This document shows positions 10,092-23,327 of a stretch of DNA of 24,000 nucleotides, piece after piece. The translations under genes and the position numbers were made by a program. A model generated the notes under the pieces. It was given only the letters and a program-made list of their open reading frames with translations. It searched no databases and was not told the origin of the DNA. Each line of letters opens with the position of its first letter. Position 1 is the first letter of the stretch. Source of the stretch: Miltoncostaeaceae bacterium (GTDB taxonomy: Bacteria > Actinomycetota > Thermoleophilia > Miltoncostaeales > Miltoncostaeaceae); contig CAWIGI010000009.1 in the NCBI GenBank assembly GCA_963835685.1, positions 28,201 through 52,200 on the forward strand. The letters are read 5' to 3'.

Positions 10092-11993
10092 GTGACGGGG
10101 CGACGCCGCCAGCAGCAGGGGCTCCAGCGCGTCCTCGGAGCGCCCGCGCTGTTCGCGACCGCCTACGGCAACGTCGGCTCGTCGATCTACTACGCCCTCG
10201 GCGTCACGGCGGCCCTGGCCCTCGGGCTCACGCCGCTCGTCTTCATCGTCGCCGGCCTCATCTTCGCGGCGACGGCGGCCACCTACGCCGAGGGGACGGT
10301 GCGGTTCCCGGAGGCCGGGGGCTCGTCGAGCTTCGCCCGCCACGCCTTCAACGAGGTCGTCAGCTTCGGGGCCGCCTGGGCCCAGATGCTCAACTACATC
10401 ATCACGATCGCCATCTCGGCGTTCTTCGTCCCCCACTACCTCTCGATCTTCTGGGAGCCGCTGAAGGAGAACCCGTGGGACGTGATCGTGGGGGCGGCCG
10501 TGATCGCCCTTCTCGTCGGCGTGAACGTCGTCGGGGTGAAGGAGGCGGCGCGACTGAACATCGTGCTGGCCGTCATCGACTTCGCCACCCAGGCGCTGCT
10601 GGTCGTGCTCGGCTTCGTCCTCGTCTTCTCCCCGGAGGTCCTGGTCAACAACGTCAACTTCGGCGTCGCGCCGACCTGGGAGAGCTTCTTCCTCGCGATC
10701 CCGGTGGCGATGATCGCGTACACCGGCATCGAGACCATCTCCAACCTGTCGGAGGAGGCACGCGACCCCTCCCGCGACATCCCGCGCTCCATCCGCCTGG
10801 TCGCGATCGCCGTCTACGCCATCTACTTCACCCTGCCGGCGATCGCCCTCTCGGCCCTTCCGGTCTCGGAGGGTCCCGACGGGTTCACCACCCCGTTGGG
10901 CGAGCCCCCCGAGGAGGGCGGCTTCGCCAACGACCCGGTGCTGGGGATCGTCAACAACCTCGGGGTGGAGGGCGGCTTCCTCACCGTCCTCGAGATCTAC
11001 GTCGGCGTCCTGGCCGCGACCATCCTCTTCATCGCCGCCAACGCGGGCGTCATCGGCGCGTCGCGCATCACCTACGCGATGGCCAGCTACCGGCAGCTCC
11101 CCGAGCCCTTCCGCCGCCTGCACCGCCGCTTCAAGACGCCGTGGCTCGCGCTGGCGCTGTTCGCGGGCGTGGCACCGATCGTGGCCATCCTGCCGGGGGA
11201 GACCGTGTTCCTCGGCACGATGTACTCCTTCGGGGCGATGCTCTCGTTCACCGTCGCGCACGTGTCGCTCGTCGCGCTGCGCGTGCGCGGGCGCGACGAG
11301 GAGCTGATCTACCGCGCGCGGCCGAACGTGCACGTGCGCGGGATCGACTGGCCGCTGTTCGCGATCCTCGGCGGGCTCGCGACGGGCCTGGCGTTCCTGG
11401 TGGTCGTGATCCAGGAGCCGGCCACGCGGTGGGCGGGCCTCGGCTGGCTGGCGCTCGGGTTCGTCATCTACCTCGTCTACCGCCGCAGCGTGCTGCGCCT
11501 GCCGGTGGCCGAGACCGTCCGCGCCCCGGTGGTCGTGCTGACCGACGAGCTGCGGGTGGAGTACCGCACGATCGTCGTGCCCGTGGTGCGCTCGGCCGAG
11601 TCGGAGGAGGCCCTCGTCGTCGCGTCGCGTCTGGCGGCCGAGCGCCGGTCGCGGGTCGCGATCGTGCACGTGCTCGAGATCCCGATGGAGCTCCCGCTGA
11701 CGATCGACCTGCCGTCGGCCGAGCGCGAGGCGAACGACCTCCTCGACGACGCCCGCGCGCTGGTCGAGAGCTACGGGGTCCGTGCGGTCACGCGCCTCGA
11801 GCGCGCCCGCAGCGCGGGCCCGGCGATCGTGGCCGACGCGGTGGCGCGCACCGCCGATCTGGTCGTGATCGGGGCGCCGCGGCGCGGCATCGGCCGGCGC
11901 ACGCCCGTGTTCGGAAAGACCGTGCGGCACGTGCTCAAGCACAGCCCGTGCCGCGTGATCGTCGCCACGACCCGCGAGGAGGCGGCGGCGTGA
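10092..11993 (+). CDS. APC-superfamily permease fused to a C-terminal universal stress protein (USP) domain.
   Basis: About 12 TM segments with APC-type motifs: YGNVGSSIYYALG, FPEAGGSSSFA, AYTGIETISNLSEEARDP. The C-terminal USP block runs YRTIVVPV...VAIVHVLEIP...DLVVIGAPRRG...GKTVRHVLKHSPCRVIV. Confidence 0.85.
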   Translation: MTGRRRQQQGLQRVLGAPALFATAYGNVGSSIYYALGVTAALALGLTPLVFIVAGLIFAATAATYAEGTVRFPEAGGSSSFARHAFNEVVSFGAAWAQMLNYIITIAISAFFVPHYLSIFWEPLKENPWDVIVGAAVIALLVGVNVVGVKEAARLNIVLAVIDFATQALLVVLGFVLVFSPEVLVNNVNFGVAPTWESFFLAIPVAMIAYTGIETISNLSEEARDPSRDIPRSIRLVAIAVYAIYFTLPAIALSALPVSEGPDGFTTPLGEPPEEGGFANDPVLGIVNNLGVEGGFLTVLEIYVGVLAATILFIAANAGVIGASRITYAMASYRQLPEPFRRLHRRFKTPWLALALFAGVAPIVAILPGETVFLGTMYSFGAMLSFTVAHVSLVALRVRGRDEELIYRARPNVHVRGIDWPLFAILGGLATGLAFLVVVIQEPATRWAGLGWLALGFVIYLVYRRSVLRLPVAETVRAPVVVLTDELRVEYRTIVVPVVRSAESEEALVVASRLAAERRSRVAIVHVLEIPMELPLTIDLPSAEREANDLLDDARALVESYGVRAVTRLERARSAGPAIVADAVARTADLVVIGAPRRGIGRRTPVFGKTVRHVLKHSPCRVIVATTREEAAA

Positions 11994-12169
11994 GCCGCGG
12001 CGCGGTGCCGGTGGTCCTCGCGACGGTCGTCGTCCTGCTGGGGGTCGCGCTGATCGCCCGGACGGTCTCGCTGGGAGTGGGCGGCGGGCTGGGGCTCCTG
12101 ATCGGGGGGCTGCTCGTGATCGGTGGCGCGCTGCGCCTCTACCTGCTGCGGCCGTGGCGCAGAAGCTGA
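11990..12169 (+). CDS. Candidate 59-aa two-TM membrane protein, translationally coupled between the two permease genes.
   Basis: GTG 11990 overlaps the upstream TGA (GTGA). The 3' end overlaps the next gene by 16 nt. Translation VSRGAVPVVLATVVVLLGVALIARTVSLGVGGGLGLLIGGLLVIGGALRLYLLRPWRRS has two hydrophobic helices. It is the tail of an otherwise off-frame 762-aa track ORF. Confidence 0.45.
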   Translation: MSRGAVPVVLATVVVLLGVALIARTVSLGVGGGLGLLIGGLLVIGGALRLYLLRPWRRS

Positions 12170-14067
12170 CCCCGCCCGGGCCGGGCCTCCGCGCCCGCTC
12201 GCTCGCGCTGATCGCCTACGGCGAGGTCGGCTCGGCGCTGGCGTTCGCCCTCGGCATCGTGGCGCTCTACGCGGTCGGCCTGACGCCCTGGGTGCTCCTG
12301 GCCGTCGGGCTCCTCGTGCTGGTCGTGAGCCTCTCCTACGCCGAGGGCGCGGCGGCCATGCCGGAGCCCGGCGGCGCCGCGACCTTCGTGCGGCGCGCGT
12401 TCAGCGACCCCGCCGGATTCGTCACGGGGTGGCTGCTGTTCCTCGACTACTTCGTCGTGATCGCCCTGGCGGCGCTGTTCGTCCCCCACTACCTGGGCTC
12501 GGCGCTCGGGTGGGAGGCGGCGCGGGACCGACCCTGGGACGCGCTGATCGGGATCGCGGTGATCCTGGCGATCGCCGGCGTCCGGCGGCTGCGGCGGGTG
12601 AGGCTCTACAAGGTCGCGGTGGCGATGGTCGCCGCCGCCCTGGTCGTCCTGGTCGCCATCGCCGTCATCGGGTTCGCCGCGGTCGTCTCGGCCGACTCGC
12701 TGTCCCTCGGCACCGATCTCGGCACGGCGCCGTCGTGGTCGTCGATCGCCCTTGCCCTGGCCCTCGCGACGCTGGCCTACACCGGCATCGAGAGCGTCTC
12801 CAGCTACGCGGCGGAGGTGCGCGAGCCGGGGCGCACGCTGCCCCGGAGCCTCTTCGTCGGCATCGGCGTCGCCGTGGCGATCAACGTGGCGGTGGCGGTG
12901 GTCGGGGTCTCGGCCTTCCCGGCCGAGCCGGACCCCAGCGCCCCCGACGGCGTCGCGAGCGCCCTGGGGACCGAGTGGCTGAAGGCCCCGCTGGTGGGGA
13001 TCGCCTCGGCCGTCGGCGACGAGATCGGCGCCCGCGAGGCGCTGGAGGTCGTCGCGGGCGTCACCGGGGCCCTGATCCTCATCGCGGCCGTCATCACGGC
13101 CATGGTGGGCGCCGAGCGCCTCGCCCAGTCGATGGCCCGCTACGACATGCTGCCCCACGCCTTCGCCCGGCCGGCGCGGGGGGCCCGGCCGCCGCTGGCC
13201 GGCGCCGTCGCGGTGGCGGCGATCGCGTCGGGCCTCATCGTGCTCGCGGTGACCGCGGGCGACGGCGAGCGCTTCCTCGCCGGCCTCTACAGCTTCGGCG
13301 TGCTCATCGCGCTCACGGCCGCCCAGGCCGCGGTGGTGCGCCTGCGCGCGCGCGAGCCGGGCCTCCAGCGCCCCTTCCGCGTGCCCCTGGCCGTGAGCGT
13401 GCGGGGAAAGGAGATCCCGCTCCCGGCCGTCGTCGGCGCGGTCCTGACGCTCGCGCTGTGGGTCGCGGCGGTGGCGACCAGCGAGGGGGCGAGGATCGCG
13501 GGGCCCGTCTGGCTGGTCGGTGGACTGGCGGTCTACCTGCTGTCGCGGCGTGCCGGCGGGGAGACGCTGTTGGGCCGGGCGACGCCGCCCGAGCCTGACC
13601 TCGTCCCCTCCGCCGAGCCCGACTTCCGGCGGATCCTCGTCCCGGTCAAGCCCGGCGACATCGGGCGCGAGGTGCTCGCGACGGCCCTGAGGCTCGCCAA
13701 GCAGTCCGGCGGCTCGGTGCGCGTGATCCACGTGCTGAAGGTCCCGATGGCGCAGCCCCTCGGCGCCGACCTCGGCGGCGCCGAGCAGGACGGCCTCGAC
13801 GTCGTCGAGGAGGCGCGCGAGACGGGCGCGAACCAGGGCGTCGGGGTCGACGGCGTCGTCGTCCGCGCCCGGTCGCGGAGCGAGGCGATCGTCGCCGAGG
13901 CGGAGGAGATCGGCGCCGACCTCGTCATGATGGGCTCGTCGCCGCGCTGGCGGTCCCAGTCACGCTTCTTCAGCCCGCTCGTAGACGAGCTCTTGCGCGC
14001 GGCGCCCTGTGAGGTGATGGTCGTCACCTATCCCGAGGGCGTCCTCGAGGAGGTCGGCGGCGCATAA
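12154..14067 (+). CDS. Second APC-superfamily permease::USP fusion, a paralog of 10092..11993.
   Basis: Same architecture and collinear motifs: YGEVGSALAFALG, MPEPGGAATFV, AYTGIESVSSYAAEVREP. USP block: RRILVPV...VRVIHVLKVP...DLVMMGSS...LLRAAPCEVMVV. Confidence 0.85.
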   Translation: MAQKLTPPGPGLRARSLALIAYGEVGSALAFALGIVALYAVGLTPWVLLAVGLLVLVVSLSYAEGAAAMPEPGGAATFVRRAFSDPAGFVTGWLLFLDYFVVIALAALFVPHYLGSALGWEAARDRPWDALIGIAVILAIAGVRRLRRVRLYKVAVAMVAAALVVLVAIAVIGFAAVVSADSLSLGTDLGTAPSWSSIALALALATLAYTGIESVSSYAAEVREPGRTLPRSLFVGIGVAVAINVAVAVVGVSAFPAEPDPSAPDGVASALGTEWLKAPLVGIASAVGDEIGAREALEVVAGVTGALILIAAVITAMVGAERLAQSMARYDMLPHAFARPARGARPPLAGAVAVAAIASGLIVLAVTAGDGERFLAGLYSFGVLIALTAAQAAVVRLRAREPGLQRPFRVPLAVSVRGKEIPLPAVVGAVLTLALWVAAVATSEGARIAGPVWLVGGLAVYLLSRRAGGETLLGRATPPEPDLVPSAEPDFRRILVPVKPGDIGREVLATALRLAKQSGGSVRVIHVLKVPMAQPLGADLGGAEQDGLDVVEEARETGANQGVGVDGVVVRARSRSEAIVAEAEEIGADLVMMGSSPRWRSQSRFFSPLVDELLRAAPCEVMVVTYPEGVLEEVGGA

Positions 14068-14074
14068 TGTGGAC

Positions 14075-14488
14075 ATGAAGGCGATCGTCGTCGGTTGTGG
14101 GCGGGTCGGCTCCTCTCTGGCGCGAAGCCTGGCGGGCGAGGGGTGGGAGGTGGTCGTGGTCGAGCAGAAGGAGGAGGCGCTGACGCGCCTCGGCAGCGAC
14201 TGGCGCCAGCCGCTGGTGATCGGTCACGGGATGGACGCCGACGTCCTCGAGGAGGCGGGCATCGACGACGCCGACATGCTCATCGCCGCGACCGACGGCG
14301 ACAACACGAACCTGATCATCGCCCAGGTCGCCACGCGGCGCTACCGCGTCGACCACGTCGCGGCCCGCATCCAGGACCCCGCGCGGGCCGAGGTCTACGG
14401 CAACCGGGGCTTCGAGGTGATCTCGCCGGTGAAGATGGCCATCGAGGGGCTCACCCGCTGGGCCCTGGGCGCGGGAGCGACGACCTGA
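14075..14488 (+). CDS. trkA: TrkA-N (RCK N-terminal, NAD-binding) domain protein, CeoB/TrkA-like.
   Basis: MKAIVVGCGRVGSSLARSL (Rossmann GxGxxG) and IAATDGDNTNLIIAQVA. GTG 14069 is an alternative start two codons upstream. Confidence 0.8.
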   Translation: MKAIVVGCGRVGSSLARSLAGEGWEVVVVEQKEEALTRLGSDWRQPLVIGHGMDADVLEEAGIDDADMLIAATDGDNTNLIIAQVATRRYRVDHVAARIQDPARAEVYGNRGFEVISPVKMAIEGLTRWALGAGATT

Positions 14489-15150
14489 TGTTCACGATCG
14501 TGGTCGGCGGCGGGAAGATGGGGTCCAACCTCACCCGCACGCTCATCGCCAAGCAGCACGAGGTGACGGTCGTCGAGGCCAAGGCGGCGCGGGCCGACGT
14601 CCTCGAGGACGAGTTCGGCCACCGGGTCGTCCACGGCGACGGCACGGAGCTCTACGTGCTGGAGTCGGCCGGCATGACGCGGCCGCCCGACATCGTGGTC
14701 GCCGTCACCGGCGACGACGAGGACAACATGATCATCGCCCAGCTCGCCCGCGAGAAGTACGGCGTGGCCAAGGTCATCGCGCGGGTCAACGATCCCCGCA
14801 ACCAGGTCCACTTCGACCTGCTGGGCATCTCGCCCACGATCTGCCCGACCCAGCGGATCATGGCCCTCATCGAGCACGAGGTCCCCGAGCACGAGCTCGT
14901 CCACCTTCTGGAGCTGCGCCAGGAGAACCTCGAGATCATCGAGGTCGAGGTCGACCCGAGGTGCCCGTGCATCGGCAAGTCGGTCGCCAAGCTCGCCCTG
15001 CCGACCGGCTCCCGCCTGATCTCCCTCGTCCGCGACGGGGTGGCCGAGCTGGTCGATGACGGGACCGTCCTGAACGCGGGCGACCAGGTCCTCGCCATCC
15101 TCGAGCCCGGGCGCGAGGACGAGGTGCGCCGGCTCCTGCTGGGCCGGTAG
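14488..15150 (+). CDS. trkA: TrkA family K+ transport regulatory protein (TrkA-N plus TrkA-C), CeoC/TrkA-like.
   Basis: ATG 14488 overlaps the upstream TGA (TGATG). Motifs: MFTIVVGGGKMGSNLTRTL, VAVTGDDEDNMIIAQLA. C-terminal TrkA-C-like block: IEVEVDPRCPCIGKSVAKLALPTGSRLISLVRDG...GDQVLAI. Confidence 0.85.
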   Translation: MFTIVVGGGKMGSNLTRTLIAKQHEVTVVEAKAARADVLEDEFGHRVVHGDGTELYVLESAGMTRPPDIVVAVTGDDEDNMIIAQLAREKYGVAKVIARVNDPRNQVHFDLLGISPTICPTQRIMALIEHEVPEHELVHLLELRQENLEIIEVEVDPRCPCIGKSVAKLALPTGSRLISLVRDGVAELVDDGTVLNAGDQVLAILEPGREDEVRRLLLGR

Positions 15151-15177
15151 TCGCCGCGGGGCACGTGGCCAAGGCCC

Positions 15178-15213
15178 CGTCGTCACGCCTGTAGGGTCTC
15201 GAACGTGACGACG
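15178..15213. promoter_or_regulatory. Candidate BirA operator (bioO) overlapping the bioB -10 box and start codon.
   Basis: CGTCGTCACG (15178-15187), 16-nt spacer, CGTGACGACG (15204-15213): a perfect 10-bp inverted repeat spanning 36 bp. The spacer contains TAGGGT (15192-15197), which fits the TAnnnT pattern, 7 nt before GTG 15205. There is no Shine-Dalgarno sequence. A wHTH-bearing birA closes the operon. Confidence 0.55.
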
Positions 15214-16203
15214 ATCCTGGAGGGTCTCGAGCGCACCCTGGTCGAGGAGAAGCGGTCCATCGAGGCCGAGGAGGCTCGGCAGCTCGTGGGCCTGCCCGCT
15301 GCGGAGCTGCCGCGCCTCCTCGGCCTCGCTCACGAGGTGCGGCGGCGCTGGTGGGGCGAGGGCGTCGAGCTCGAGTCCCTGATCAGCGCCCAGACCGGGG
15401 GGTGTCCCGAGGACTGCGCCTTCTGCTCGCAGTCGATGCACTACGACGCCCCGGCCCAGCGCCACGCCTTCCTCCCGCTCGACCAGGTGCTCGCGGCCGC
15501 GCGGGCGACCGAGGCCTCCGGGGCCAGCGCGTTCTGCATCGTCGTCGCGGTGCGCGGGCCGGACCGGCGCCTGATGGACCAGGTGCTGCGCGCGATCGAG
15601 GCCATCCACGCCGAGACGGGCCTCGACGTCGACTGCTCGCTCGGCATCCTCACGCGCCCCCAGGCCGAGGCCCTGCGCGACGCGGGGGTCCATCACTACA
15701 ACCACAACCTGGAGACCAGCCGGAGCTTCTTCCCCGAGATCGTCACCACGCACACCTGGGAGGAGCGCGCCGAGACGTGCCGGCTTGTCACCGAGCTCGG
15801 CATGAAGCTCTGCAGCGGCGGCATCCTCGGGATGGGGGAGACCTGGGAGCAGCGGCTCGAGCTCGCCTACGAGCTGCGCGAGCTGGGGCCCGACGAGATC
15901 CCGCTCAACTTCCTCAACCCACGCCCCGGAACCCCGCTGGCCGGCCGGAGGCCGCTCGAGGCACACGACGCGCTGCGCGCGATCGCGATCTTCCGGCTGG
16001 TGTTCCCCGACCGGATCATCCGCTATGCGGGCGGCCGCGAGCTGGTGCTGCGCGACGCCCAGGCCCTCGGCCTGGTCGGCGGGGTGAACGGGATGATCGT
16101 CGGCAACTACCTCACCACCGCCGGCCGCCCCGCGGCCGAGGACGTGCGCCTGGCCCGCGACCTGGGGATGCCGGTGGTCCCGGGCGCGCGCGCGGGCGAC
16201 TGA
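15205..16203 (+). CDS. bioB: Biotin synthase.
   Basis: Radical-SAM CPEDCAFC motif plus [19 protein letters not shown] and [11 protein letters not shown] blocks. First gene of the bio operon. Confidence 0.93.
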
Positions 16204-16214
16204 CGGGGCGGCCC

Positions 16215-17507
16215 GTGGGCCCCCAGGAGGTGCTGGCGCTCGACCGCGCGCACGTCTGGCACCCCTACGCGCCGATGCCCGCCGCCGACCCGCCGCTCGT
16301 GGTCGAGTCGGCGTCCGGCGTGCGGCTGCGCCTCGCCGAGCCGGTCGGCGGGGTGCGGGAGCTCGTGGACGGCATGTCGTCCTGGTGGTCCGCCATCCAC
16401 GGCTACGCCCACCCGGCGCTCGACGCGGCCGCGCGCGACCAGCTCGGCCGGATGAGCCACGTGATGTTCGGCGGGATCACCCACGAGCCCGCCGTGCGGC
16501 TGGCGGCGCGTCTGGTCGAGATCACCCCCGGGCCGCTGCGCCACGTGTTCCTCGCCGACTCGGGCTCGGTGTCGGTCGAGGTCGCGGTGAAGATGTGCCT
16601 CCAGCACTGGCGCTCCCGGGGGCGCCCGGAGAAGCGCCGCCTCTGCACCTGGCGCGGCGGCTACTACGGCGACACCCTCCAGCCGATGTCGCTCTGCGAC
16701 CCCGACGGCGGCATGCACCAGATGTGGGCCGGCGTCCTCCCCGAGCAGGTCTTCGCGGAGATGCCTCCCGCCGGCTTCGGCGCGCGCCCCGACCAGGCGT
16801 ACATCGACCGGCTCGAGGCCACCGTCGCCGAGCACGCCGCCGAGCTCGCCGCCCTCATCGTGGAGCCGGTCGTGCAGGGCGCCGGGGGGATGCGCTTCCA
16901 CTCGCCGGCGTACGTCGCCGCCCTCCGGGAGATCGCGGACCGTCACGACGTCCTCCTCGTCTTCGACGAGATCGCGACGGGCTTCGGGCGCACCGGCGAG
17001 CTGTTCGCCGCCGACCACGCGGGCGTCGCGCCCGACGTGATGTGCGTCGGGAAGGCGATGACCGGCGGCTACATGACCATGGCGGCGGCGCTGTGCACCC
17101 CGGCGGTGGCCGAGGCCATCTCGACCGGAGACGTGCCGGTGCTCGCCCACGGGCCGACCTTCATGGGCAACCCGCTGGCCGCGGCCGTCGCCGGCGCCTC
17201 GATCGACCTGCTGCTGGCCGGCGACTGGCGCGGCGAGGTCGCGCGCCTCGAGGCCGGCCTGCGCGAGGGGCTCGCGCCGGCCGCCGGCCTGGCCGGGGTC
17301 GCGGACGTGCGCGCGCTCGGCGCCATCGGCGTGGTGCAGCTCGACCACGAGGTGGACGTGCCCGCCGCGACCCGGGCCGCCGTCGAGCGCGGCGTCTGGC
17401 TGCGGCCGTTCCGCGACCTCGTCTACACGATGCCGCCCTACGTGGCCGGCGACGACGACGTCGCGCGCATCTGCGAGGCCGCCGTCGCCGCGGCGGAGGC
17501 CGGATGA
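16215..17507 (+). CDS. bioA: Adenosylmethionine-8-amino-7-oxononanoate aminotransferase.
   Basis: Motifs: [45 protein letters not shown], and PLP-Lys block [11 protein letters not shown]. The start is taken at GTG 16215; the track ORF from 15351 is an off-frame overlap of bioB. Confidence 0.9.
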
Positions 17508-18686
17508 GCCGCACCGGCCTCGACTGGCTGCCGGAGGCGCTCACCGACCTCGCCGACCGCGACCTGCTGCGCGTCCTGACCTACTGCCAGGGCGCGCCCG
17601 ACCCCGAGGTCGAGATCGACGGCGTCCCGCACCTCCTGCTCGCGTCCAACAACTACCTCGGGCTCGCCAACGACCCGGCGGTCGTGGCCGGCGCCCGCGC
17701 CGCGCTGGAGGAGTACGGGGCCGGCGCCGGCGCCTCGCGCCTGGTCACCGGCAGCCTCGACCTGCACCGACGCCTCGAGGAGCGGATCGCCGCGCTCAAG
17801 CGCTGCGAGGACGCGCTGGTCTTCCCGACCGGGTTCCAGGCGAACGTCGGCACGATCCCGGCGCTCGTCGGGCGGGGCGACCTCGTCCTCTCCGACGAGC
17901 TCAACCACGCCAGCCTCATCGACGGGTGCCGTCTCTCGGGCGCCGAGGTCGTGCGCTACCCGCACGCCGACGCGGACGCGCTGGAGTCGGCCCTCCGCGC
18001 CGCGGGGCCGCGGCCGCGGCGGCTGATCGTCACCGACACGGTCTTCAGCATGGACGGCGATCTCGCCCCCCTTCCCGCGATCGTCGAGGTCGCCGATCGC
18101 CACGGCTGCATGTTGATGGTCAACGAGGCCCACGCCACGGGGGTGCTCGGCAGCACCGGCGCCGGGGCCCTGGAGCACTTCGGCCTGGAGGGCCGCGTGC
18201 CCGTCGTGATGGGGACCCTCTCCAAGGCCCTCGGCGCCCAGGGCGGCTACGTGGCCGGCGACCGCGACCTCTGCCACTACCTGCGCACCCGCGACCGCGG
18301 CTTCGTCTTCACCACCGCCCTCGCCCCCGCGGCGGCCGGGGCGGCGCTCGCTGCCCTCGACCTCGTGCGCGACCAGCCCGAGCGCCGCGCCCGCCTGCGC
18401 GCGCTCGTGGCGCGACTCGTCGAGGGAGCGCGGGGCCCTCGGCTACACGGTCCTGCCCACCGACTCGGCCGTCGTCGGCGTCCTCGTCGGCGAGTCGGCC
18501 GACGCCCTCGCCGTCGGGGCCTCGCTGCGCCGCGCACGGGTCTGGGCGCCGGCCATCCGTCCGCCGTCGGTCCCGCCGGGCACCGCGCGCCTGCGCCTCA
18601 CCGTCATGGCGACCCACGAGGACCGCCACATCGACTGGGCGCTCGAGGCGCTCGCGGACGCCCGCAACCTGGTGCCGGCCGCGTGA
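17504..18686 (+). pseudogene. bioF: 8-amino-7-oxononanoate synthase, interrupted by a +1 frameshift near 18432-18438 in this sequence.
   Basis: ATG 17504 overlaps the bioA stop (ATGA). The frame used from 17504 gives NNYLGL, FPTGFQAN, SDELNHASLIDG, TDTVFSMDGD and the PLP-Lys block GTLSKALG as far as ...RLVEGARG. The canonical C-terminus (ALGYTVLPTDSAVVGVLVGES...AIRPPSVPPGTARLRLTVMATH...) continues in the next frame to TGA 18684-18686. The span is 1183 nt, one more than a multiple of 3. Confidence 0.85.
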
Positions 18687-19483
18687 TGCTCGGGGAGCCC
18701 GGCATCTTCGTCATGGGGACGGACACCGGCGTCGGCAAGACGGTCGTGACGGCATCCATCGCCCTCGCCGCCCGGGCGCGGGGGCGCGACCCGGCCGTCC
18801 TCAAGCCGGCCCAGACCGGCGACGACGGGACCATCACCGGCGACGCCGAGTTCGTGGCCGCCCTGATCGGGCTCGACGAGCCGTCCGAGGCGATCTGCCC
18901 GTACCGCCTGCGGGCGCCGCTGGCGCCCTCGGTGGCCGCGTCGCTGGAGGGCCGCCGCCTCGACCCTCAGGTCGTTGCACGCTCATACAACGAACTGGCG
19001 GGGCGGCACGACCTCGTGCTGGTCGAGGCTGCGGGCGGCGCGCTCGTGCCGTTCTCGGACGGCGTCGACATGGCCGGCCTGGCGTCGCTGCTGGCCCTGC
19101 CGGTGGTGGTCGCCGCCCGGCCCGGGCTGGGGACGCTGAACCACACGCTCCTCACGCTCGAGGCCCTGCACCGGCGCGGGCTGACGGTGCTCGGCGTGGT
19201 CATCAGCGGCTACCCGGCGGAGCCCGGCCTCGACGCGCTCACGAACCCGGCCGCGCTCGCGCGCCTGACCCCGGTCCCCCTGTTGGGCGCCATCCCCGAC
19301 GACCCCGAGATCGACGTCGAGGCTGGCAGGCCCGGGTCCCTCGCGGAGATCGGCCCGGCCGGGCTCGACCCGCTGCTCGGCGGGACCTTCTCGCCGGCGC
19401 GGTTCCGCCGCCATGGCGAGGCCCGGCTCGCCGCGCTCGCGTCCCACCCGAAGGAGAGGAGCACCGCCCGTGGATCCCACTGA
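18686..19483 (+). CDS. bioD: Dethiobiotin synthetase.
   Basis: MLGEPGIFVMGTDTGVGKT (P-loop), LVEAAGG, GTLNHTLLTLEAL. GTGATG overlaps the restored bioF stop; GTG 18683 is an alternative start. As written, the shifted bioF frame runs straight into bioD, giving a 660-codon ORF at 17504..19483. Confidence 0.88.
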   Translation: MLGEPGIFVMGTDTGVGKTVVTASIALAARARGRDPAVLKPAQTGDDGTITGDAEFVAALIGLDEPSEAICPYRLRAPLAPSVAASLEGRRLDPQVVARSYNELAGRHDLVLVEAAGGALVPFSDGVDMAGLASLLALPVVVAARPGLGTLNHTLLTLEALHRRGLTVLGVVISGYPAEPGLDALTNPAALARLTPVPLLGAIPDDPEIDVEAGRPGSLAEIGPAGLDPLLGGTFSPARFRRHGEARLAALASHPKERSTARGSH

Positions 19484-20159
19484 CGCCGCACACGTGCTGC
19501 AGACGCCGGACGAGTACGCCGGCTTCCTGTCGGGGCTGTCGCCCGCCAAGCGGATCGAGATGCTCAACAGCTTCCGCTGCGCCGAGCTCCAGGGGGCCGA
19601 GGAGCTGCGCGTGCTGTCCGAGACGGTCGACGACCCAGACCTCGCGAGGAAGTTCGCGCGGCACGCCGCCGACGAGGAGAAGCACGGCGCCTACTTCGCC
19701 GAGATCATGCGCCGCCTCGGCGTCGAGCCCTTCGACCCGCCGGACGAGCCCGACCACATCACGATCGGTGGCCGGCTGATCGTGGACACGCTCAACGACA
19801 TCGAGGAGATCCTCCCCCGGCGCGGCGAGACGGTCGGGCTCGACCGGGTGATCCCGATCCTGACCCTCTTCCAGGCCGTTGAGAGCCGGGCGCTCGTGTC
19901 GTTCGAGGCGCACCGGCGCACCTTCGAGCGGGCCGACCCGGTCATCGCCGGGAGGATCGCCGAGATCATCGCCGACGAGAGCCACCACGCCGCATACGTT
20001 CGCAAGCTGCTCGACCGCTGGGCCGAGCAGGGCTGGGGCGACGCCGTGCGCGAGGCTCAGGAGGCGACCGACGCCCGCGAGGAGCGCGCCCGCGAGTGGG
20101 CTGCCGAGCGCCTCGAGGCCGAGCGCCTGCGCGAGGAGGGGGAGCTGTCGGCGACCTGA
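19470..20159 (+). CDS. Ferritin-like (four-helix-bundle, diiron-carboxylate type) protein of unknown function, embedded in the biotin operon.
   Basis: GTG 19470 lies 8 nt after AAGGAGAGGAG and 14 nt inside the bioD 3' end. Putative metal-ligand pattern E...ExxH...E...ExxH, read from AELQGAEEL / ADEEKHGAYF / FQAVESRAL / IADESHHAAYV. The C-terminal tail is highly charged. ATG 19413 is a less likely start. Confidence 0.65.
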   Translation: MDPTDAAHVLQTPDEYAGFLSGLSPAKRIEMLNSFRCAELQGAEELRVLSETVDDPDLARKFARHAADEEKHGAYFAEIMRRLGVEPFDPPDEPDHITIGGRLIVDTLNDIEEILPRRGETVGLDRVIPILTLFQAVESRALVSFEAHRRTFERADPVIAGRIAEIIADESHHAAYVRKLLDRWAEQGWGDAVREAQEATDAREERAREWAAERLEAERLREEGELSAT

Positions 20160-21125
20160 CCTCCGAGCGCAGGGAGCGGGTCCTCGCCGCACTCGTGGGG
20201 GGCGGCGCGGCCGGGGTCTCGGGCGAGGCGCTGGCGGCCGAGCTCGGCTGCTCGAGGGCGGCGGTGCACCGCCACGTCGAGGCGCTGCGGCGGGACGGCC
20301 TGGTCGTCCGCGGCGGCCCGGACGGCTATCGCCTCGACGAGGGCGCCGACCCGGTCGTCCCGATGCTCGTGGCGCCGCGCCTCGCGCCGCCGCTGGCCGG
20401 CCCGGTGGTGTGGCTGGCCGAGACCGGCTCCACGAACGACGAGGCGATCGAGCGCGCGCGCGGTGGTGCCGCGGAGGGGCTCGTCGTCGGCGCCGACCGC
20501 CAGCGCGCCGGCCGGGGGCGGCGCGGGCGCCCGTGGGTGGCCGCGGCCGGGCACGGGCTGCTGGTCTCGGTGCTGCTGCGGCCGGAGGTGCCGCCGGTGG
20601 ACGCCGGGCTCCTTCCGATCGTCGCCGCCGTCGGGGCCGCCGAGGCGCTCGGGCCGGAGGCGCGGATCGTCTGGCCCAACGACATCCTGATCGCCGGGCG
20701 CAAGGTGGCCGGGATCCTCTGCGAGATGTCCGCCGACCAGGAGCGCGTGGAGTGGGCGGTCGCGGGGGTCGGGGTGAACGTGCGCTCCGCCCCGGCGCTC
20801 GACGATGCGCGCTGGGAGCCCGGCGCATTGTCGGACGCCGGCCCGCCGCCGCGCCGGGCCGACCTGCTGGTCGGGCTGCTCGGCGCCCTCGGCCGGCGCT
20901 ACGCCGCATGGGTCGAGGGCGGCCCGCCGGCCGTCCTCGACGCGTACGCCGCGCGCGACGCCCTGCGCGGCCGCCAGGTGGTCGTGAGCCTGGCCGGCGA
21001 GGAGGTGACGGGGCGAGTGCGCCGGCACCGACGCGCTCGGGCGGTTGCGCGTGGGCACCGCGGCTGGTGAGCGCCTGCTGGGAGCGGGCGAGGTCGTGCG
21101 CGTCGGCCCGGCGCCCGAGGGGTAG
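20096..21125 (+). pseudogene. birA: Bifunctional biotin operon repressor / biotin-[acetyl-CoA-carboxylase] ligase (group II, with N-terminal wHTH), interrupted by a +1 frameshift near 21020 in this sequence.
   Basis: wHTH: VSGEALAAELGCSRAAVHRHVEALRRDGLVV. Ligase motifs: ETGSTND, RQRAGRGRRGRPW, WPNDILIAGRKVAGIL. After ...GEEVTGRV the as-written frame gives RRHRRARAVARGHRGW and stops at 21070. The next frame gives the canonical tail AGTDALGRLRVGTAAGERLLGAGEVVRV and stops at 21125. The start is ambiguous: GTG 20096, or CTG 20156 at the position expected for the family. Confidence 0.85.
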
Positions 21126-21134
21126 GTTCAGCCC

Positions 21135-22313
21135 GTGGCGACGGCTCCATCGCTCGCCGGCAGCGACATCTACCTCACCGACGACCTCCTCGCCGACGAG
21201 GAGCGGGCCGTGCGCGACCGGGTGCGCCGCTTCGGCGACGAGGAGGTGCGCCCCGTCATCAACGGCTACTGGGAGCGCGCGGAGTTCCCGTTCGAGCTGA
21301 TCCCCAAGCTCGCCGCGCTCGGGGTCTGCGGCGGGACCATCGAGGGCTACGGGTGCCCCGGCCTCAGCCCGCTCGCCGCCGGCCTGGTGTCGATGGAGCT
21401 CGCGCGCGCCGACGGGAGCGTGAGCACCTTCCACGGGGTGCATTCGGGCCTCGCGATGGGCGCGATCGGCCAGCTCGGCTCCGAGGAGCAGAAGGCGCGC
21501 TGGCTGCCCGGCATGGCGAGCCTGGAGGCCGTGGGGGCCTTCGCCCTGACCGAGCCGGAGCACGGGTCGGACGCCGTCACCCTGGAGACGCGGGTACGGC
21601 GGCTCGGCGACGGCTACGTCATCGACGGCGCCAAGCGCTGGATCGGCAACGCCACCTTCGCGGATCTCACCGTGGTGTGGGCGGGGGACGGGTCGGGGGA
21701 CGTGGGCGCGTACGTGGTCGAGAAGGGCACCCCCGGCGTCGAGGCCCGGCTGATCACGGGCAAGGTCGCCAAGCGCGCCTCCTGGCAGGCCGATCTGACC
21801 CTTCGCGACGTGCGCGTGCCGGCCGAGAACCGCCTGGAGGCCGCCGTCGAGCTTCGAGGATGCGGCGCGGGTGCTCGCCGCCGCGCGGCCCGGCATCGCC
21901 TGGGGCGCCCTCGGCCACGCCGTCGCCGCCTACGAGGCGGCGGTCGCGTACACGCTCGAGCGCGAGCAGTTCGGATCGCCGATCGGCGGCTACCAGCGCA
22001 CCCAGTACCGGCTGGCGAAGATGCTCGCCGAGATCACCGCCATGCGCCTGATCTGCATGCGCCTCGCGGAGCTGGTGGGGCGGGGGAGCTGACGCCGGCC
22101 ATGGCGAGCCTGGCCAAGATGCACAATGCGGCCCGCGCCCGCGCGGTGGTGGCGGAGGCCCGTGACCTGCTCGGCGGCAACGGGCTGCTGCTCCAGCACG
22201 ACGTCGCCCGGCACCTGGGCGACGTGGAGGCCGTCTCGACGGTCGAGGGCACGGACGTCGTCCACGCGCTCATCGTGGGCCGGGAGATCACCGGGATCTC
22301 GGCGTTCAGCTGA
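21135..22313 (+). pseudogene. gcdH: Glutaryl-CoA dehydrogenase-like acyl-CoA dehydrogenase. The ORF is uninterrupted, but its central ~80 codons are out of frame (+1 at about 21840-21847, -1 at about 22082-22086).
   Basis: Outer parts in one frame: GYGCPGLS, FALTEPEHGSD, KRWIGNATFADL, VPAENRLEAA and LTPAMASLAKMHNA...GGNGLL...VEGTDVVHALIVGREITGISAF. The conserved middle (SSFEDAARVLAAARPGIAWGALGHA...REQFGSPIGGYQ..LAKMLAEITAM..) is read only in the next frame (21847-22089). In the main frame this stretch is an Arg/Pro/Gly-rich string. Confidence 0.8.
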
Positions 22314-22321
22314 GCCGGCCC

Positions 22322-23327
22322 GTGCGCGCCGCCGTCTACCAGGGCCAGGGCCGGATCACCGTCGAGGAGCGCCCCGACCCGGTCGCCGGGCCGGGCGAGC
22401 TGGTCGTGCGGGTGCGCGCCTGCGGCCTCTGCGGCAGCGACCTCATGGCCTGGTACCAGGACCCGCGGGCCCCGCTGGTGCTGGGCCACGAGCCGGCCGG
22501 CGAGGTCGTGCAGGCCGGCCCCGGCGCCCCCGTCGCCGAGGGGACGCGCGTGTTCGTGCACCACCACGTCCCGTGCATGACCTGTGACCTCTGCCGCGCC
22601 GGGCGCCACACGCTGTGCCCCGCGTTCCGGCGCAGCCGCATCGACCCCGGCGGCCTGGCCGAGCTGGTCCGGGTGCCGGCGGACAACGTCCGCGCCGACG
22701 TCCTCGCCCTGCCCGACACCCTCCCCGACTGGGCGGCGACCCTCATCGAGCCGCTCGCCTGCGTGGTTCGCGGCCAGCGCTGGGCGGGGGTGGGGCCCGG
22801 CTCGCGCGTGGCCGTGGTGGGCGCGGGAGCGATGGGGCTGCTCGAGATCCGCGCCGCCCTGGAGGCGGGCGCGGCGGCGGTCGCCGCCGTGGAGCCGCGC
22901 GCCGACCGGCGCGCCCTCGCCGAGGCCGCCGGCGCGACGGCGCTCCCCGGGCCGGAGCCGGACGGACTGCGCGCCGCCCTGGGTGGGGAGCTCGCCGATC
23001 AGGTCTTTGTCTGTACGGCCAATCGGGAGGCGATCGCCGACGCCCTCCACCTCGCGGGCCCGGGGGGCGTGGTCCAGCTCTTCGCCCCGACGCCGCCCGG
23101 CGAGCTCGTGGGGCTCGACCTCGGGTCGGTCTTCTTCCGCGAGGTGAGCATCCAGTTCGACCTACTCGGCCGGGCCCTTCGACACGCGCGACGCGCTCGC
23201 GCTACTGGCGTCGGGCGCCGTCGACGCGGCGACGCTGGTCTCGCACCGGCTGCCGCTCGATGAGGTGGCGGAGGCATTTCGCCTCGCACGCTCCGGGGAG
23301 GCGACCAAGGTGGTCGTCGAGCCGTAG
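22322..23327 (+). pseudogene. Zn-dependent medium-chain dehydrogenase/reductase (alcohol/threonine dehydrogenase-like), interrupted by a +1 frameshift near 23156-23162 in this sequence.
   Basis: Motifs: GLCGSD, LGHEPAGEV, structural-Zn block CMTCDLCRAGRHTLC, Rossmann VAVVGAGAMG. After ...FFREVSIQ the as-written frame becomes FDLLGRALRHARRARATGV... and stops at 23263. The next frame gives a typical MDR tail, YSAGPFDTRDALALLASGAVDAATLVSHRLPLDEVAEAFRLARSGEATKVVVEP, and stops at 23327. Confidence 0.8.

What the first reader, a model, noticed from the sequence alone, without database searches (positions are those of the whole stretch)
19470..20159. Diiron ferritin-like protein of unknown function embedded in bioB-bioA-bioF-bioD-X-birA: candidate missing step of biotin synthesis
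The gene is locked into the operon. Its GTG lies 14 nt inside the bioD 3' end, behind its own AAGGAGAGGAG, and its 3' end overlaps or abuts birA. The protein is about 229 aa and shows the E...ExxH...E...ExxH ligand pattern of four-helix-bundle diiron oxidases/oxygenases (AELQGAEEL, DEEKH, AVESRAL, DESHH). This is the fold class of acyl-ACP desaturases, aldehyde-deformylating oxygenase and CADD.

The window has all four ring-assembly genes. It has none of the known routes to the pimeloyl thioester (BioC/BioH, BioW, BioI, BioZ).

Hypothesis 1: this is an O2-dependent diiron enzyme that generates pimeloyl-ACP/CoA by oxidative C-C cleavage of a longer acyl chain, a functional analog of the P450 BioI.

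Hypothesis 2: it is an iron-handling or repair partner for the sacrificial Fe-S cluster of BioB.

Either role would be undescribed as far as I know.
Basis: inference. Interest (0 to 1): 0.75.

Follow-up and report, generated by a model that had tools for sequence, protein, structure and literature searches.

The report
Unassigned diiron gene in biotin operon
A conserved 229-residue iron-binding helical-bundle protein is always encoded right after bioD in the biotin operons of one group of uncultured soil actinobacteria (Thermoleophilia), and it most likely makes the pimelate starter of biotin, as the recently described enzyme BioE does, although a helper role for biotin synthase is not excluded.

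Summary
Window 19470-20159 (+) encodes a real 229-aa protein, here called X. It is under purifying selection, has an intact ferritin-like E/ExxH/E/ExxH ligand set, and overlaps bioD at its start and birA at its end. The operon is bioB-bioA-bioF-bioD-X-birA behind a conserved palindromic operator.

X forms a narrow family found in 22 GTDB species, all Thermoleophilia/Miltoncostaeaceae MAGs. In every locus it directly follows bioD, while the downstream neighbour varies.

Reader hypothesis 1 now has a published precedent. BioE (PNAS, Dec 2025) is a ferritin-like diiron oxygenase in bio operons that cleaves C14-18 acyl-CoA/ACP to pimeloyl-CoA/ACP.

X is not a BioE family member:
- The BioE HMM scores X at 6.7 bits.
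- Identity is 21%.
- The basic carrier-binding residues of BioE are acidic in X.
- By profile, X's wider clan is as close to Dps-like protein and bacterioferritin as to BioE.

Its ligand register, helix order and operon position do mirror Chlamydia BioE.

A serious rival emerged. The window's BioB is of the mycobacterial type that lacks the Cys128 cluster ligand and needs the auxiliary protein BsaP, and no bsaP lies nearby.

Best reading: an independently recruited pimeloyl-forming oxygenase (about 0.45). Rival: BioB support (about 0.25). Function is untested.

The parts
15182..15209 (+). Palindrome GTCACG-N16-CGTGAC overlapping the bioB start codon. It contains a TAGGGT -10-like hexamer 7 nt before the GTG. 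Candidate BirA operator/promoter of the operon.
   Evidence: It occurs once in the window, against 0.02 expected. It sits at the same place upstream of bioB in 18 related loci. It is absent in L001 and L004; in L004 the nearby BirA lacks an HTH domain. BirA binding is inferred, not shown.
15205..16203 (+). bioB, biotin synthase of the mycobacterial type: E. coli Cys128 is replaced by Asp, and Ser43 and Ser218 by Glu.
   Evidence: NCBIfam TIGR00433 scores 382 bits against a cut-off of 225. Alignment with E. coli and M. tuberculosis-complex BioB. Signature residues taken from PMC11099021.
16215..17507 (+). bioA, adenosylmethionine-8-amino-7-oxononanoate transaminase.
   Evidence: NCBIfam NF004624 scores 571 bits against a cut-off of 494. 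Pfam Aminotran_3.
17504..18686 (+). bioF, 8-amino-7-oxononanoate synthase, interrupted by a +1 frameshift near 18430-18440 in a GGGGCCC run.
   Evidence: Three-frame translation. Pfam Aminotran_1_2 at 5.5e-53 on the N-terminal part. Orthologues in related loci are intact.
18683..19483 (+). bioD, dethiobiotin synthase.
   Evidence: NCBIfam TIGR00347 scores 151.7 bits against a cut-off of 83.3. Pfam AAA_26.
19451..19461 (+). Shine-Dalgarno-like AAGGAGAGGAG, 8 nt upstream of the X start and inside the 3' end of bioD.
   Evidence: Read directly from the sequence.
19470..20159 (+). X: a 229-aa ferritin-like diiron-carboxylate protein with ligands E39, E69, H72, E138, E170 and H173. It is the finding itself.
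   Evidence: ORF and start codon. Pfam Rubrerythrin scores 25.8 bits against a gathering score of 22.8, on residues 38-85 only. The AF2 model has pLDDT 84 and is a four-helix bundle with extra helices. Foldseek best matches are Dps-like protein and bacterioferritin. dN/dS is 0.13-0.26. Synteny.
20096..21070 (+). birA, a biotin-protein ligase with an N-terminal HTH (repressor-type). The start is GTG 20096, or CTG 20156 in the position where homologues start.
   Evidence: NCBIfam TIGR00121 scores 126.7 bits against a cut-off of 83.1. Pfam HTH_11 plus BPL_LplA_LipB.

Best explanation
X is a soluble, O2-activating diiron-carboxylate enzyme that supplies the pimeloyl thioester for this biotin operon. 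It is a functional counterpart of BioE, recruited independently from a different branch of the ferritin-like superfamily.

Proposed mechanism:
1. Two irons are bound by E39, E69/H72, E138 and E170/H173 inside a four-helix bundle.
2. The reduced site activates O2 and oxidises C7-C8 of a long-chain acyl-CoA or acyl-ACP.
3. The C7-C8 bond is cleaved to give pimeloyl-CoA/ACP plus a shorter fatty acid.
4. BioF, BioA, BioD and BioB, encoded just upstream, convert the product to biotin.
5. The whole unit is switched on under biotin limitation through a BirA operator at the bioB promoter.

Shown here: the gene, its conservation, the ligand set, the fold class, the obligatory linkage to bioBAFD, and the operator-like palindrome. 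Inferred: iron binding, O2 dependence, substrate, product and BirA control.
For: **Linkage.**
- X directly follows bioD in 22 of 22 GTDB species loci and in further metagenome loci.
- What follows X varies: birA, a PPDK/PEP-synthase-like gene, pheST, isocitrate lyase or bioA. X travels with bioBAFD, not with its other neighbours.
- X is the only unassigned gene in the conserved module. No known pimelate gene lies in the window or in the flanks examined.

**Precedent.**
- BioE is a ferritin-like diiron oxygenase encoded in bio operons. It makes pimeloyl-CoA/ACP and complements E. coli pimelate-pathway mutants only aerobically (PMC12704756; PMC12915131).
- In C. psittaci the operon is bioB-bioF-bioD-bioA-bioE, with bioE last and overlapping its upstream gene, as X does here.

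**Resemblance to BioE.**
- All six ligands of X align with those of validated CpBioE: E39/E41, E69/E68, H72/H71, E138/E140, E170/E170, H173/H173.
- Second-shell residues are shared and invariant in both families: N-6 and G+3/A+4 around the first Glu, HAA(D/E)ExxHGxY, A(I/V)ExRA and IIx(D/E)ExxH.
- The predicted helix order is colinear, including an extra helix in the long B-C connection and a C-terminal helix.

**Other.**
- Ligands are invariant and dN/dS is 0.13-0.26.
- One operator-like palindrome sits in front of bioB and nowhere else in the window.
Against: - X is not detectably a BioE family member. The BioE HMM gives X 6.7 bits, the X HMM gives BioE at most 15 bits, and pairwise hhalign gives E 0.005 at 21% identity.
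- With a broad profile, X's clan matches BioE (up to 42.8 bits) no better than Dps-like PA4880 (50 bits) or bacterioferritin (44.7 bits). Homology is therefore only at superfamily level.
- The basic carrier-binding residues of CpBioE, K46/K47, are E44/E45 in X. X is acidic (pI 4.75, against 6-7 for BioE).
- The best Foldseek matches of the X model are ferroxidase-type proteins, not substrate-oxidising oxygenases.
- More distant homologues of X are not bio-linked.
- The BsaP-type BioB with no bsaP nearby offers a competing job for X.
Confidence: 0.45

Rival explanations
1. X supports biotin synthase. The BioB of these organisms lacks one ligand of the sacrificial [2Fe-2S] cluster, as mycobacterial BioB does, and needs a helper. 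X, a diiron protein, would replace the small Fe-S protein BsaP, or would handle the iron released and re-inserted at each BioB turnover, or would protect the cluster from O2 or peroxide.
For: - The window's BioB shares the BsaP-associated signature described by Qu et al. E. coli Cys128 is replaced (Asp here, Ala in the M. tuberculosis-complex BioB). Ser43 and Ser218 are replaced by Glu in both.
- No bsaP-like small Cys-rich ORF lies after bioB or within 10 kb of X in the window or in the related loci fetched. In actinobacteria bsaP usually sits directly downstream of bioB.
- X's closest solved relatives by sequence and fold are ferroxidase-type proteins: Dps-like PA4880, bacterioferritin and symerythrin.
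- X has one invariant Cys (C37) next to ligand E39.
Against: - There is no precedent for a ferritin-like protein in this role.
- BsaP uses three Cys to hold an Fe-S cluster and docks through an Arg-rich basic patch on an acidic BioB surface. X has a single Cys and is acidic, pI 4.75.
- X is never adjacent to bioB and always follows bioD, including where the gene order is rearranged.
- bsaP could be encoded elsewhere in the genome.
- Two of the five mycobacterial signature substitutions are not shared: R95 is Ala and Y149 is His in the window.
- X has N-terminal helices, a 40-residue B-C insertion and a long charged C-terminal helix that cage-forming ferritins lack.
Confidence: 0.25
2. X is a genuine but highly divergent orthologue of BioE, that is, a member of the same family by descent, with the same substrates and carrier recognition.
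For: - Profile-profile comparison of the broadened X alignment with BioE gives 96% probability, E 4e-9, over 158 columns that include all ligands.
- The predicted helix order is colinear.
- The operon position is the same as in Chlamydia.
Against: - The same broad profile scores Dps-like protein and bacterioferritin as high as or higher than BioE.
- The BioE HMM scores X at 6.7 bits.
- X's nearest relatives are non-bio-linked proteins (E 2e-19 and weaker), not BioE.
- Carrier-binding residues are not conserved.
- My CpBioE model and my X model pull different best PDB matches: AetD/TenA-like for CpBioE and Dps/Bfr for X. Both sets of matches are weak.
Confidence: 0.1
3. X has no dedicated role in biotin synthesis. 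It would be a general ferritin-like iron-storage or peroxide-detoxifying protein that happens to be co-transcribed with the bio genes in this lineage.
For: - The family is narrow: one cluster at 50% identity, all sequences at least about 74% identical. Conserved synteny could therefore partly reflect recent common descent.
- Distant homologues sit in unrelated contexts.
Against: - Linkage to bioD survives several independent rearrangements of both flanks and of bioA.
- X shows translational-coupling-type overlaps with bioD and birA.
- X sits inside a unit with a single upstream operator-like palindrome.
Confidence: 0.1

Closest known systems
BioE, the ferritin-like diiron oxygenase of Elizabethkingia, Chryseobacterium and Chlamydia (Xu et al., PNAS 2025, PMC12704756; Zhang et al., Adv Sci 2025, PMC12915131)
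   Same: - About 205-240 aa, soluble, with six ligands in the E/ExxH/E/ExxH pattern in almost the same register.
- Shared second-shell motifs.
- Colinear predicted helices, including the extra helix between helices B and C.
- Encoded inside the bioBFDA cluster. In Chlamydia it is the last gene and overlaps its upstream neighbour.
   Different: - 21% identity, and not found by the BioE HMM.
- The relationship is no closer than to Dps-like protein or bacterioferritin.
- The basic ACP/CoA-contact residues are replaced by acidic ones, and the protein is acidic overall.
- No BioL regulator; instead a repressor-type BirA and a palindromic operator.
- Host phylum is Actinomycetota (Thermoleophilia), outside the reported distribution of BioE.
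- Activity is untested.
BioI (CYP107H1) of Bacillus subtilis
   Same: It is the functional model for hypothesis 1: an O2-dependent iron enzyme, encoded in a bio operon, that cleaves the C7-C8 bond of long-chain acyl-ACP to give pimeloyl-ACP (as summarised in PMC12704756).
   Different: BioI is a heme P450, with an unrelated fold and cofactor.
BsaP (Rv1590), the biotin synthase auxiliary protein of mycobacteria (Qu et al. 2024, PMC11099021)
   Same: It is an accessory gene of actinobacterial bio operons that binds iron. It is needed by BioB proteins that lack the Cys128 ligand, which is the BioB type found in this window.
   Different: BsaP is 79 aa, rubredoxin-like, has three conserved Cys and a basic docking patch, and lies directly after bioB. 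X is 229 aa, a four-helix-bundle diiron protein with one Cys, acidic, and lies after bioD.
Bacterioferritin and Dps-like ferroxidases (for example PDB 1nf4, 8w1d/8w1e PA4880, 2vzb)
   Same: These are the best sequence and fold matches among solved structures, and they have the same six-ligand diiron site.
   Different: - X scores below the Pfam Ferritin gathering score (21.5 against 24.5 bits).
- TM-score is about 0.5 over the query.
- X has about 70 extra residues: N-terminal helices, a B-C insertion with an invariant EPDHITIGG...DTLNDIEE segment, and a long C-terminal helix.
- There is no evidence of cage assembly.
- These proteins are not known from bio operons.
Cyanobacterial aldehyde-deformylating oxygenase (cADO)
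   Same: It is a ferritin-like diiron enzyme acting on long acyl chains. The BioE authors name it the closest structural relative of BioE. The X-clan profile matches it weakly (28.6 bits).
   Different: It is not among the top Foldseek matches of the X model. The spacing between helix B and helix C differs (my own knowledge of cADO's ligand positions).

Membership tests
BioE (pimeloyl-forming ferritin-like diiron oxygenase) | Six diiron ligands E, ExxH, E, ExxH, each essential in EmBioE and CpBioE | tested here: met
   E39, E69, H72, E138, E170 and H173 are invariant in 17 homologues. They align with CpBioE E41, E68, H71, E140, E170 and H173.
BioE (pimeloyl-forming ferritin-like diiron oxygenase) | Sequence membership: the authors used more than 40% identity and more than 85% coverage to EmBioE; alternatively, detection by a BioE profile | tested here: not met
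   Identity is 21% over 140 aligned columns, with hhalign E 0.0048. BLASTP against CpBioE gives E 5e-4 over only 58 residues. The BioE HMM gives X 6.7 bits.
BioE (pimeloyl-forming ferritin-like diiron oxygenase) | Specific relationship to BioE rather than to the ferritin-like superfamily in general | tested here: not met
   The broad X-clan profile scores BioE up to 42.8 bits. It scores Dps-like PA4880 at 50.1 bits and bacterioferritin at 44.7 bits.
BioE (pimeloyl-forming ferritin-like diiron oxygenase) | Gene located in or next to the bioF/D/B/A cluster | tested here: met
   X lies between bioD and birA in the window. It follows bioD in 22 of 22 GTDB loci. Reference BioE loci were checked.
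BioE (pimeloyl-forming ferritin-like diiron oxygenase) | Basic residues contacting the CoA/ACP carrier (CpBioE K46, K47, K102; EmBioE R31, K32, K46, R87) | tested here: not met
   The equivalent positions in X are E44 and E45; R102 is kept. X has pI 4.75.
BioE (pimeloyl-forming ferritin-like diiron oxygenase) | MocR-type repressor BioL next to bioE (present in Weeksellaceae, absent in Chlamydia) | tested here: not met
   There is no GntR/MocR gene in the window. A repressor-type BirA and a palindrome at the bioB promoter are present instead.
BioE (pimeloyl-forming ferritin-like diiron oxygenase) | Host genome lacks BioC-BioH, BioW/BioI and BioZ | tested here: inconclusive
   None of these was found in the 24-kb window or in the flanks examined. 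Whole genomes could not be scanned.
BioE (pimeloyl-forming ferritin-like diiron oxygenase) | O2-dependent cleavage of C14-C18 acyl-CoA/ACP to pimeloyl-CoA/ACP, and aerobic complementation of E. coli delta-bioH/delta-bioC | not testable with these tools
   This needs wet-lab work.
Ferritin-like superfamily (diiron-carboxylate four-helix bundle) | Four-helix bundle carrying two E...ExxH half-sites | tested here: met
   The AF2 model has pLDDT 84 and pTM 0.81, with ligand-bearing helices at 25-52, 56-82, 124-152 and 157-222. Foldseek target-normalised TM-scores are 0.64-0.74 to Dps-like protein and Bfr. Pfam Rubrerythrin scores 25.8 bits against a gathering score of 22.8.
Rubrerythrin | Full-length match to the rubrerythrin diiron domain plus a C-terminal rubredoxin-like Cys4 domain | tested here: not met
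   The Pfam match covers residues 38-85 only. X has a single Cys (C37) and no CxxC pair.
Bacterioferritin/ferritin/Dps | Membership of Pfam Ferritin (PF00210) at its gathering score | tested here: not met
   X scores 21.5 bits against a gathering score of 24.5. The best PDB sequence match is 1nf4 bacterioferritin, E 0.0014, N-terminal half only.
Bacterioferritin/ferritin/Dps | Assembly into 12- or 24-subunit cages | not testable with these tools
   No multimer prediction was available.
BsaP (biotin synthase auxiliary protein) | About 80 aa, three conserved Cys (CxxC...C) forming an Fe-S cluster, gene directly downstream of bioB | tested here: not met
   X is 229 aa with one Cys and lies after bioD. 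Criteria are from PMC11099021.

The most novel reading that the evidence does not exclude
X is neither a BioE-type pimeloyl synthase nor a passenger. It would be a new kind of biotin-synthase partner: a diiron protein that replaces the Fe-S protein BsaP for Cys128-less actinobacterial BioB, for example by rebuilding or donating to the sacrificial cluster. That would reveal a second, unrelated solution to the BioB auxiliary-cluster problem.
Probability: 0.2. Interest if true: 0.85.

Novelty: new variant of a known kind. Interest (0 to 1): 0.62.

Why it matters
The source of the pimelate moiety is the most variable step of biotin synthesis, and in many lineages it is still unknown. BioE, found only in late 2025, showed that a ferritin-like diiron oxygenase can supply it.

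If X does the same, then two unrelated branches of the ferritin-like superfamily were recruited independently to this reaction. The route would extend to Actinomycetota, and Thermoleophilia soil bacteria would have an identified pimelate source.

If X instead serves BioB, it would be a new class of biotin-synthase accessory protein for the BsaP-dependent BioB type, which is a drug-target pathway in mycobacteria.

Both outcomes can be tested directly with simple E. coli complementation.

Tried and rejected
- **Exact-sequence look-up.** The window's X is not on record.
- **Family libraries.** Pfam and NCBIfam have no model for X or for BioE.
- **Getting BioE sequences.** They were not directly available. 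I rebuilt fragments from the primer table of PMC12915131 and used them to retrieve real BioE proteins.
- **X as a BioE family member.** Rejected after HMM and calibration tests.
- **Distant homologues.** Contexts of P0045, P0046, P0047, P0048, P0051 and an Embleya replicon showed no bio genes.
- **Possible BioC in L004.** The methyltransferase near birA scores 33-40 bits against BioC cut-offs of 185-342, so it is generic.
- **Extra ORF in L001/L002.** The ORF between bioD and X has only a weak match to an MFS transporter model.
- **My assumption about BioB.** I first assumed the window's BioB had the full E. coli [2Fe-2S] ligand set. Alignment with E. coli and mycobacterial BioB showed this was wrong.
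- **Search for bsaP.** A motif search for small CxxC...C ORFs found nothing credible. No BsaP sequence could be obtained.
- **Promoters and terminators.** The sigma-70 and intrinsic-terminator scans found nothing in 15000-21400.
- **Literature.** Searches found no paper on this family or on Miltoncostaeaceae biotin synthesis.
Full report
**Observation**

The window is 75% GC. Positions 19470-20159 (+) hold an ORF with the composition of a real gene: GC1 0.72, GC2 0.57, GC3 0.91.

- The GTG at 19470 lies 14 nt inside bioD, whose stop is at 19481-19483. AAGGAGAGGAG (19451-19461) sits 8 nt upstream of it.
- All full-length homologues start M/V-DPTDAAHV, which fixes the start codon.
- The stop (20157-20159) overlaps the birA frame.
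- Against seven orthologues dN/dS is 0.13-0.26.
E39, E69, H72, E138, E170 and H173 are invariant in 17 homologues.

The neighbours are bioB (15205-16203), bioA (16215-17507), bioF (17504-18686), bioD (18683-19483) and a repressor-type birA (20096-21070).

**What the protein is**

I call the product X.

- Pfam gives only a half-length Rubrerythrin match (25.8 bits, residues 38-85) and a sub-threshold Ferritin match. NCBIfam gives nothing meaningful.
- The best solved relatives by sequence are a bacterioferritin (E 0.0014) and a Dps-like protein.
- An AlphaFold2 model (pLDDT 84, pTM 0.81) shows helices 3-9, 13-21, 25-52 (E39), 56-82 (E69, H72), a poorly predicted loop at 83-101, helix 102-114, helix 124-152 (E138) and helix 157-222 (E170, H173).
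- Foldseek against PDB returns only generic ferritin-like bundles. The best are Dps-like PA4880 and bacterioferritins, with E 2e-3 and above and query TM about 0.5.

X is therefore a ferritin-like diiron-carboxylate protein with about 70 residues beyond the minimal bundle.

**Family and distribution**

- The word-indexed search found 36 relatives, all at least about 73% identical where full length, named at most 'rubrerythrin' or 'ferritin-like domain'.
- The exhaustive profile search of 1.84 billion representatives found a single 50%-identity cluster plus fragments. After a gap, 151 remote relatives follow from E 2e-19 downward.
- A scan of one genome per GTDB species found X in 22 species. 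All are MAGs labelled Thermoleophilia or Miltoncostaeaceae, apart from one labelled 'Actinomycetes bacterium' and one labelled uncultured Bifidobacteriaceae. The closest locus (L026) is 96-97% identical across the operon.

**Context**

- In all 22 species loci, and in additional metagenome loci, X directly follows bioD.
- The usual order is bioB-bioA-bioF-bioD-X. One lineage has bioB-bioF-bioD-X-bioA.
- The gene after X is birA in 12 loci. Elsewhere it is a PPDK/PEP-synthase-like gene, pheST, isocitrate lyase or bioA.
- Upstream neighbours of bioB also vary.
- Only bioBAFD-X is conserved, and X is its only unassigned member.
- Five remote relatives of X and an Embleya homologue are not near bio genes. 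The bio linkage is specific to the narrow family.
- A palindrome GTCACG-N16-CGTGAC occurs once in the window (15182-15209; 0.02 expected) and overlaps the bioB start. It sits at the same place in 18 related loci. It is missing in L001 and L004; in L004 the nearby BirA has no HTH domain. I take it to be the BirA operator, but binding is not shown.

**Comparison with the literature: BioE**

A full-text search found BioE. It is a ferritin-like non-heme diiron oxygenase of Elizabethkingia, Chryseobacterium and Chlamydia, encoded in bio clusters. It cleaves C14-C18 acyl-CoA/ACP into pimeloyl-CoA/ACP plus the Cn-7 acid. It complements E. coli pimelate-pathway mutants only in air.

Its reported distribution is Bacteroidota families, Burkholderiaceae and Chlamydiaceae, and does not include Actinomycetota.

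BioE sequences were not directly available. I rebuilt fragments from the primer table of PMC12915131 and used them to retrieve the real proteins.

- P0186 is C. psittaci BioE; its numbering reproduces the published ligands.
- Its locus is bioB-bioF-bioD-bioA-bioE.
- A Chryseobacterium locus is bioL divergent from bioE-bioF-bioD-bioB-bioA.

**Is X a BioE?**

Pairwise evidence is marginal.

- BLASTP gives E 5e-4 over 58 residues.
- hhalign of the two family alignments gives E 0.0048 and 21% identity over 140 columns, although all six ligands align.
- The BioE HMM gives X 6.7 bits, and the X HMM gives BioE at most 15 bits.

Broadening the X alignment with its remote relatives raises the profile-profile match to BioE to 96% probability (E 4e-9, 158 columns). 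The same profile scores Dps-like PA4880 at 50 bits, bacterioferritin at 44.7, symerythrin at 33.6, cADO at 28.6 and MiaE at 28.2. BioE sequences reach 42.8 bits. The homology is therefore at superfamily level only.

Features that nevertheless parallel BioE:

- The ligand register is almost the same.
- Second-shell motifs are shared and invariant in both families.
- The predicted helix order is colinear, with an extra helix in the B-C connection and a C-terminal helix.
- The operon position is the same.

Features that differ:

- The carrier-contact lysines K46/K47 of CpBioE are E44/E45 in X.
- X is acidic, pI 4.75 against 6-7.
- My CpBioE model pulls AetD/TenA-like heme-oxygenase-fold proteins as best PDB matches, whereas X pulls Dps/Bfr. 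Both sets of matches are weak.

I conclude that X may work like BioE but is not a member of that family.

**The rival that gained weight**

Qu et al. (PMC11099021) showed that mycobacterial BioB needs the small Fe-S protein BsaP. They tied this to changes around the sacrificial [2Fe-2S] cluster: E. coli Cys128 to Ala, Ser43 and Ser218 to Glu, Tyr149 to Arg, and Arg95 to Glu.

I aligned E. coli BioB, an M. tuberculosis-complex BioB (P0303, retrieved) and the window's BioB. The window's enzyme is of that type.

- Cys128 is Asp.
- Ser43 and Ser218 are Glu.
- Tyr149 is His and Arg95 is Ala.
- The Cys one residue after position 128, present in both the mycobacterial and window proteins, is Val in an X-bearing relative (L004).

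No bsaP-like ORF follows bioB or lies within 10 kb in any locus. X could therefore be the missing BioB helper.

Points against this:

- X has one Cys and is acidic, whereas BsaP has three Cys and a basic docking patch.
- X never neighbours bioB.
- bsaP may lie elsewhere in the genome.
- No ferritin-like protein is known in such a role.

**Verdict**

The most likely function is an O2-dependent diiron oxygenase that produces the pimeloyl thioester, recruited independently of BioE (confidence about 0.45). BioB support is a serious rival (about 0.25). True BioE orthology and a passenger gene are less likely (about 0.1 each).

Nothing here tests activity, and whole-genome absence of the known pimelate routes could not be checked. 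The concept is now known, but the protein family and its host lineage are not described. I rate it a new variant of a known kind, with interest 0.62. Either outcome is quickly testable by E. coli delta-bioC/delta-bioH and delta-bioB complementation.

Noticed in passing
window 18430-18440; 21845 and 22085; 23150-23170: Four frameshifts lie within about 5 kb: one in bioF (a GGGGCCC run), two compensating shifts in the acyl-CoA dehydrogenase gene (21135-22313), and one near the 3' end of the Zn-alcohol-dehydrogenase gene (22322-). Orthologues in related loci are intact. The closest relatives are MAGs whose isolate names begin 'MFD'. The shifts look like homopolymer sequencing or assembly errors rather than pseudogenes. 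X itself is unaffected.
   Followed up: partly
window 15182-15209: A conserved palindrome GTCACG-N16-CGTGAC overlaps the bioB GTG. A TAGGGT hexamer lies 7 nt before the start codon, which suggests a leaderless bioB mRNA in this lineage. Several relatives (L007, L017, L019-L022) instead keep a leader with AAGGAG and a downstream GTGAGCATCCT start. The palindrome is absent from L001 and L004; in L004 the nearby BirA lacks an HTH domain.
   Followed up: partly
window 15205-16203: The BioB is of the mycobacterial BsaP-associated type (E. coli Cys128 to Asp, Ser43 and Ser218 to Glu), yet no bsaP follows it. In the X-bearing relative L004 the adjacent Cys is also lost (Val).
   Followed up: yes
window 10092-11993 and 12154-14067: Two tandem paralogous genes each encode an APC-family amino-acid permease fused to a C-terminal universal stress protein domain. 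Two TrkA-like genes follow at 14069-15150.
   Followed up: no
window 21135-22313: An acyl-CoA dehydrogenase gene follows birA here and in five close relatives (L011, L013, L015, L020, L026). Its best NCBIfam matches are FadE-like. Glutaryl-CoA and pimeloyl-CoA dehydrogenase models match only far below their cut-offs. No link to pimelate metabolism is shown.
   Followed up: partly
PMC12915131 supplementary Table S2 (not in the window): The primers labelled CpbioE come from two different genes. One set matches the Chlamydia pneumoniae protein P0183 (for example ...YAIELRASELYP...). The other matches C. psittaci P0186 (for example ...SAIEMRAAELYPIYHDILK...).
   Followed up: partly
model m2ee626b92297 (CpBioE, P0186): My AlphaFold2 model of C. 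psittaci BioE finds heme-oxygenase-like diiron or TenA-type structures (AetD, 3dde, TenA) as best Foldseek PDB matches (E 0.017-0.1, TM 0.55-0.60). It does not find cADO, which the BioE papers name as the closest structure. All matches are weak.
   Followed up: no
L001 9108-9611 and L002 7241-7855: In one X-bearing lineage an extra ORF of 167-204 aa lies between bioD and X. It has no Pfam family and only a weak match to an MFS transporter model.
   Followed up: partly
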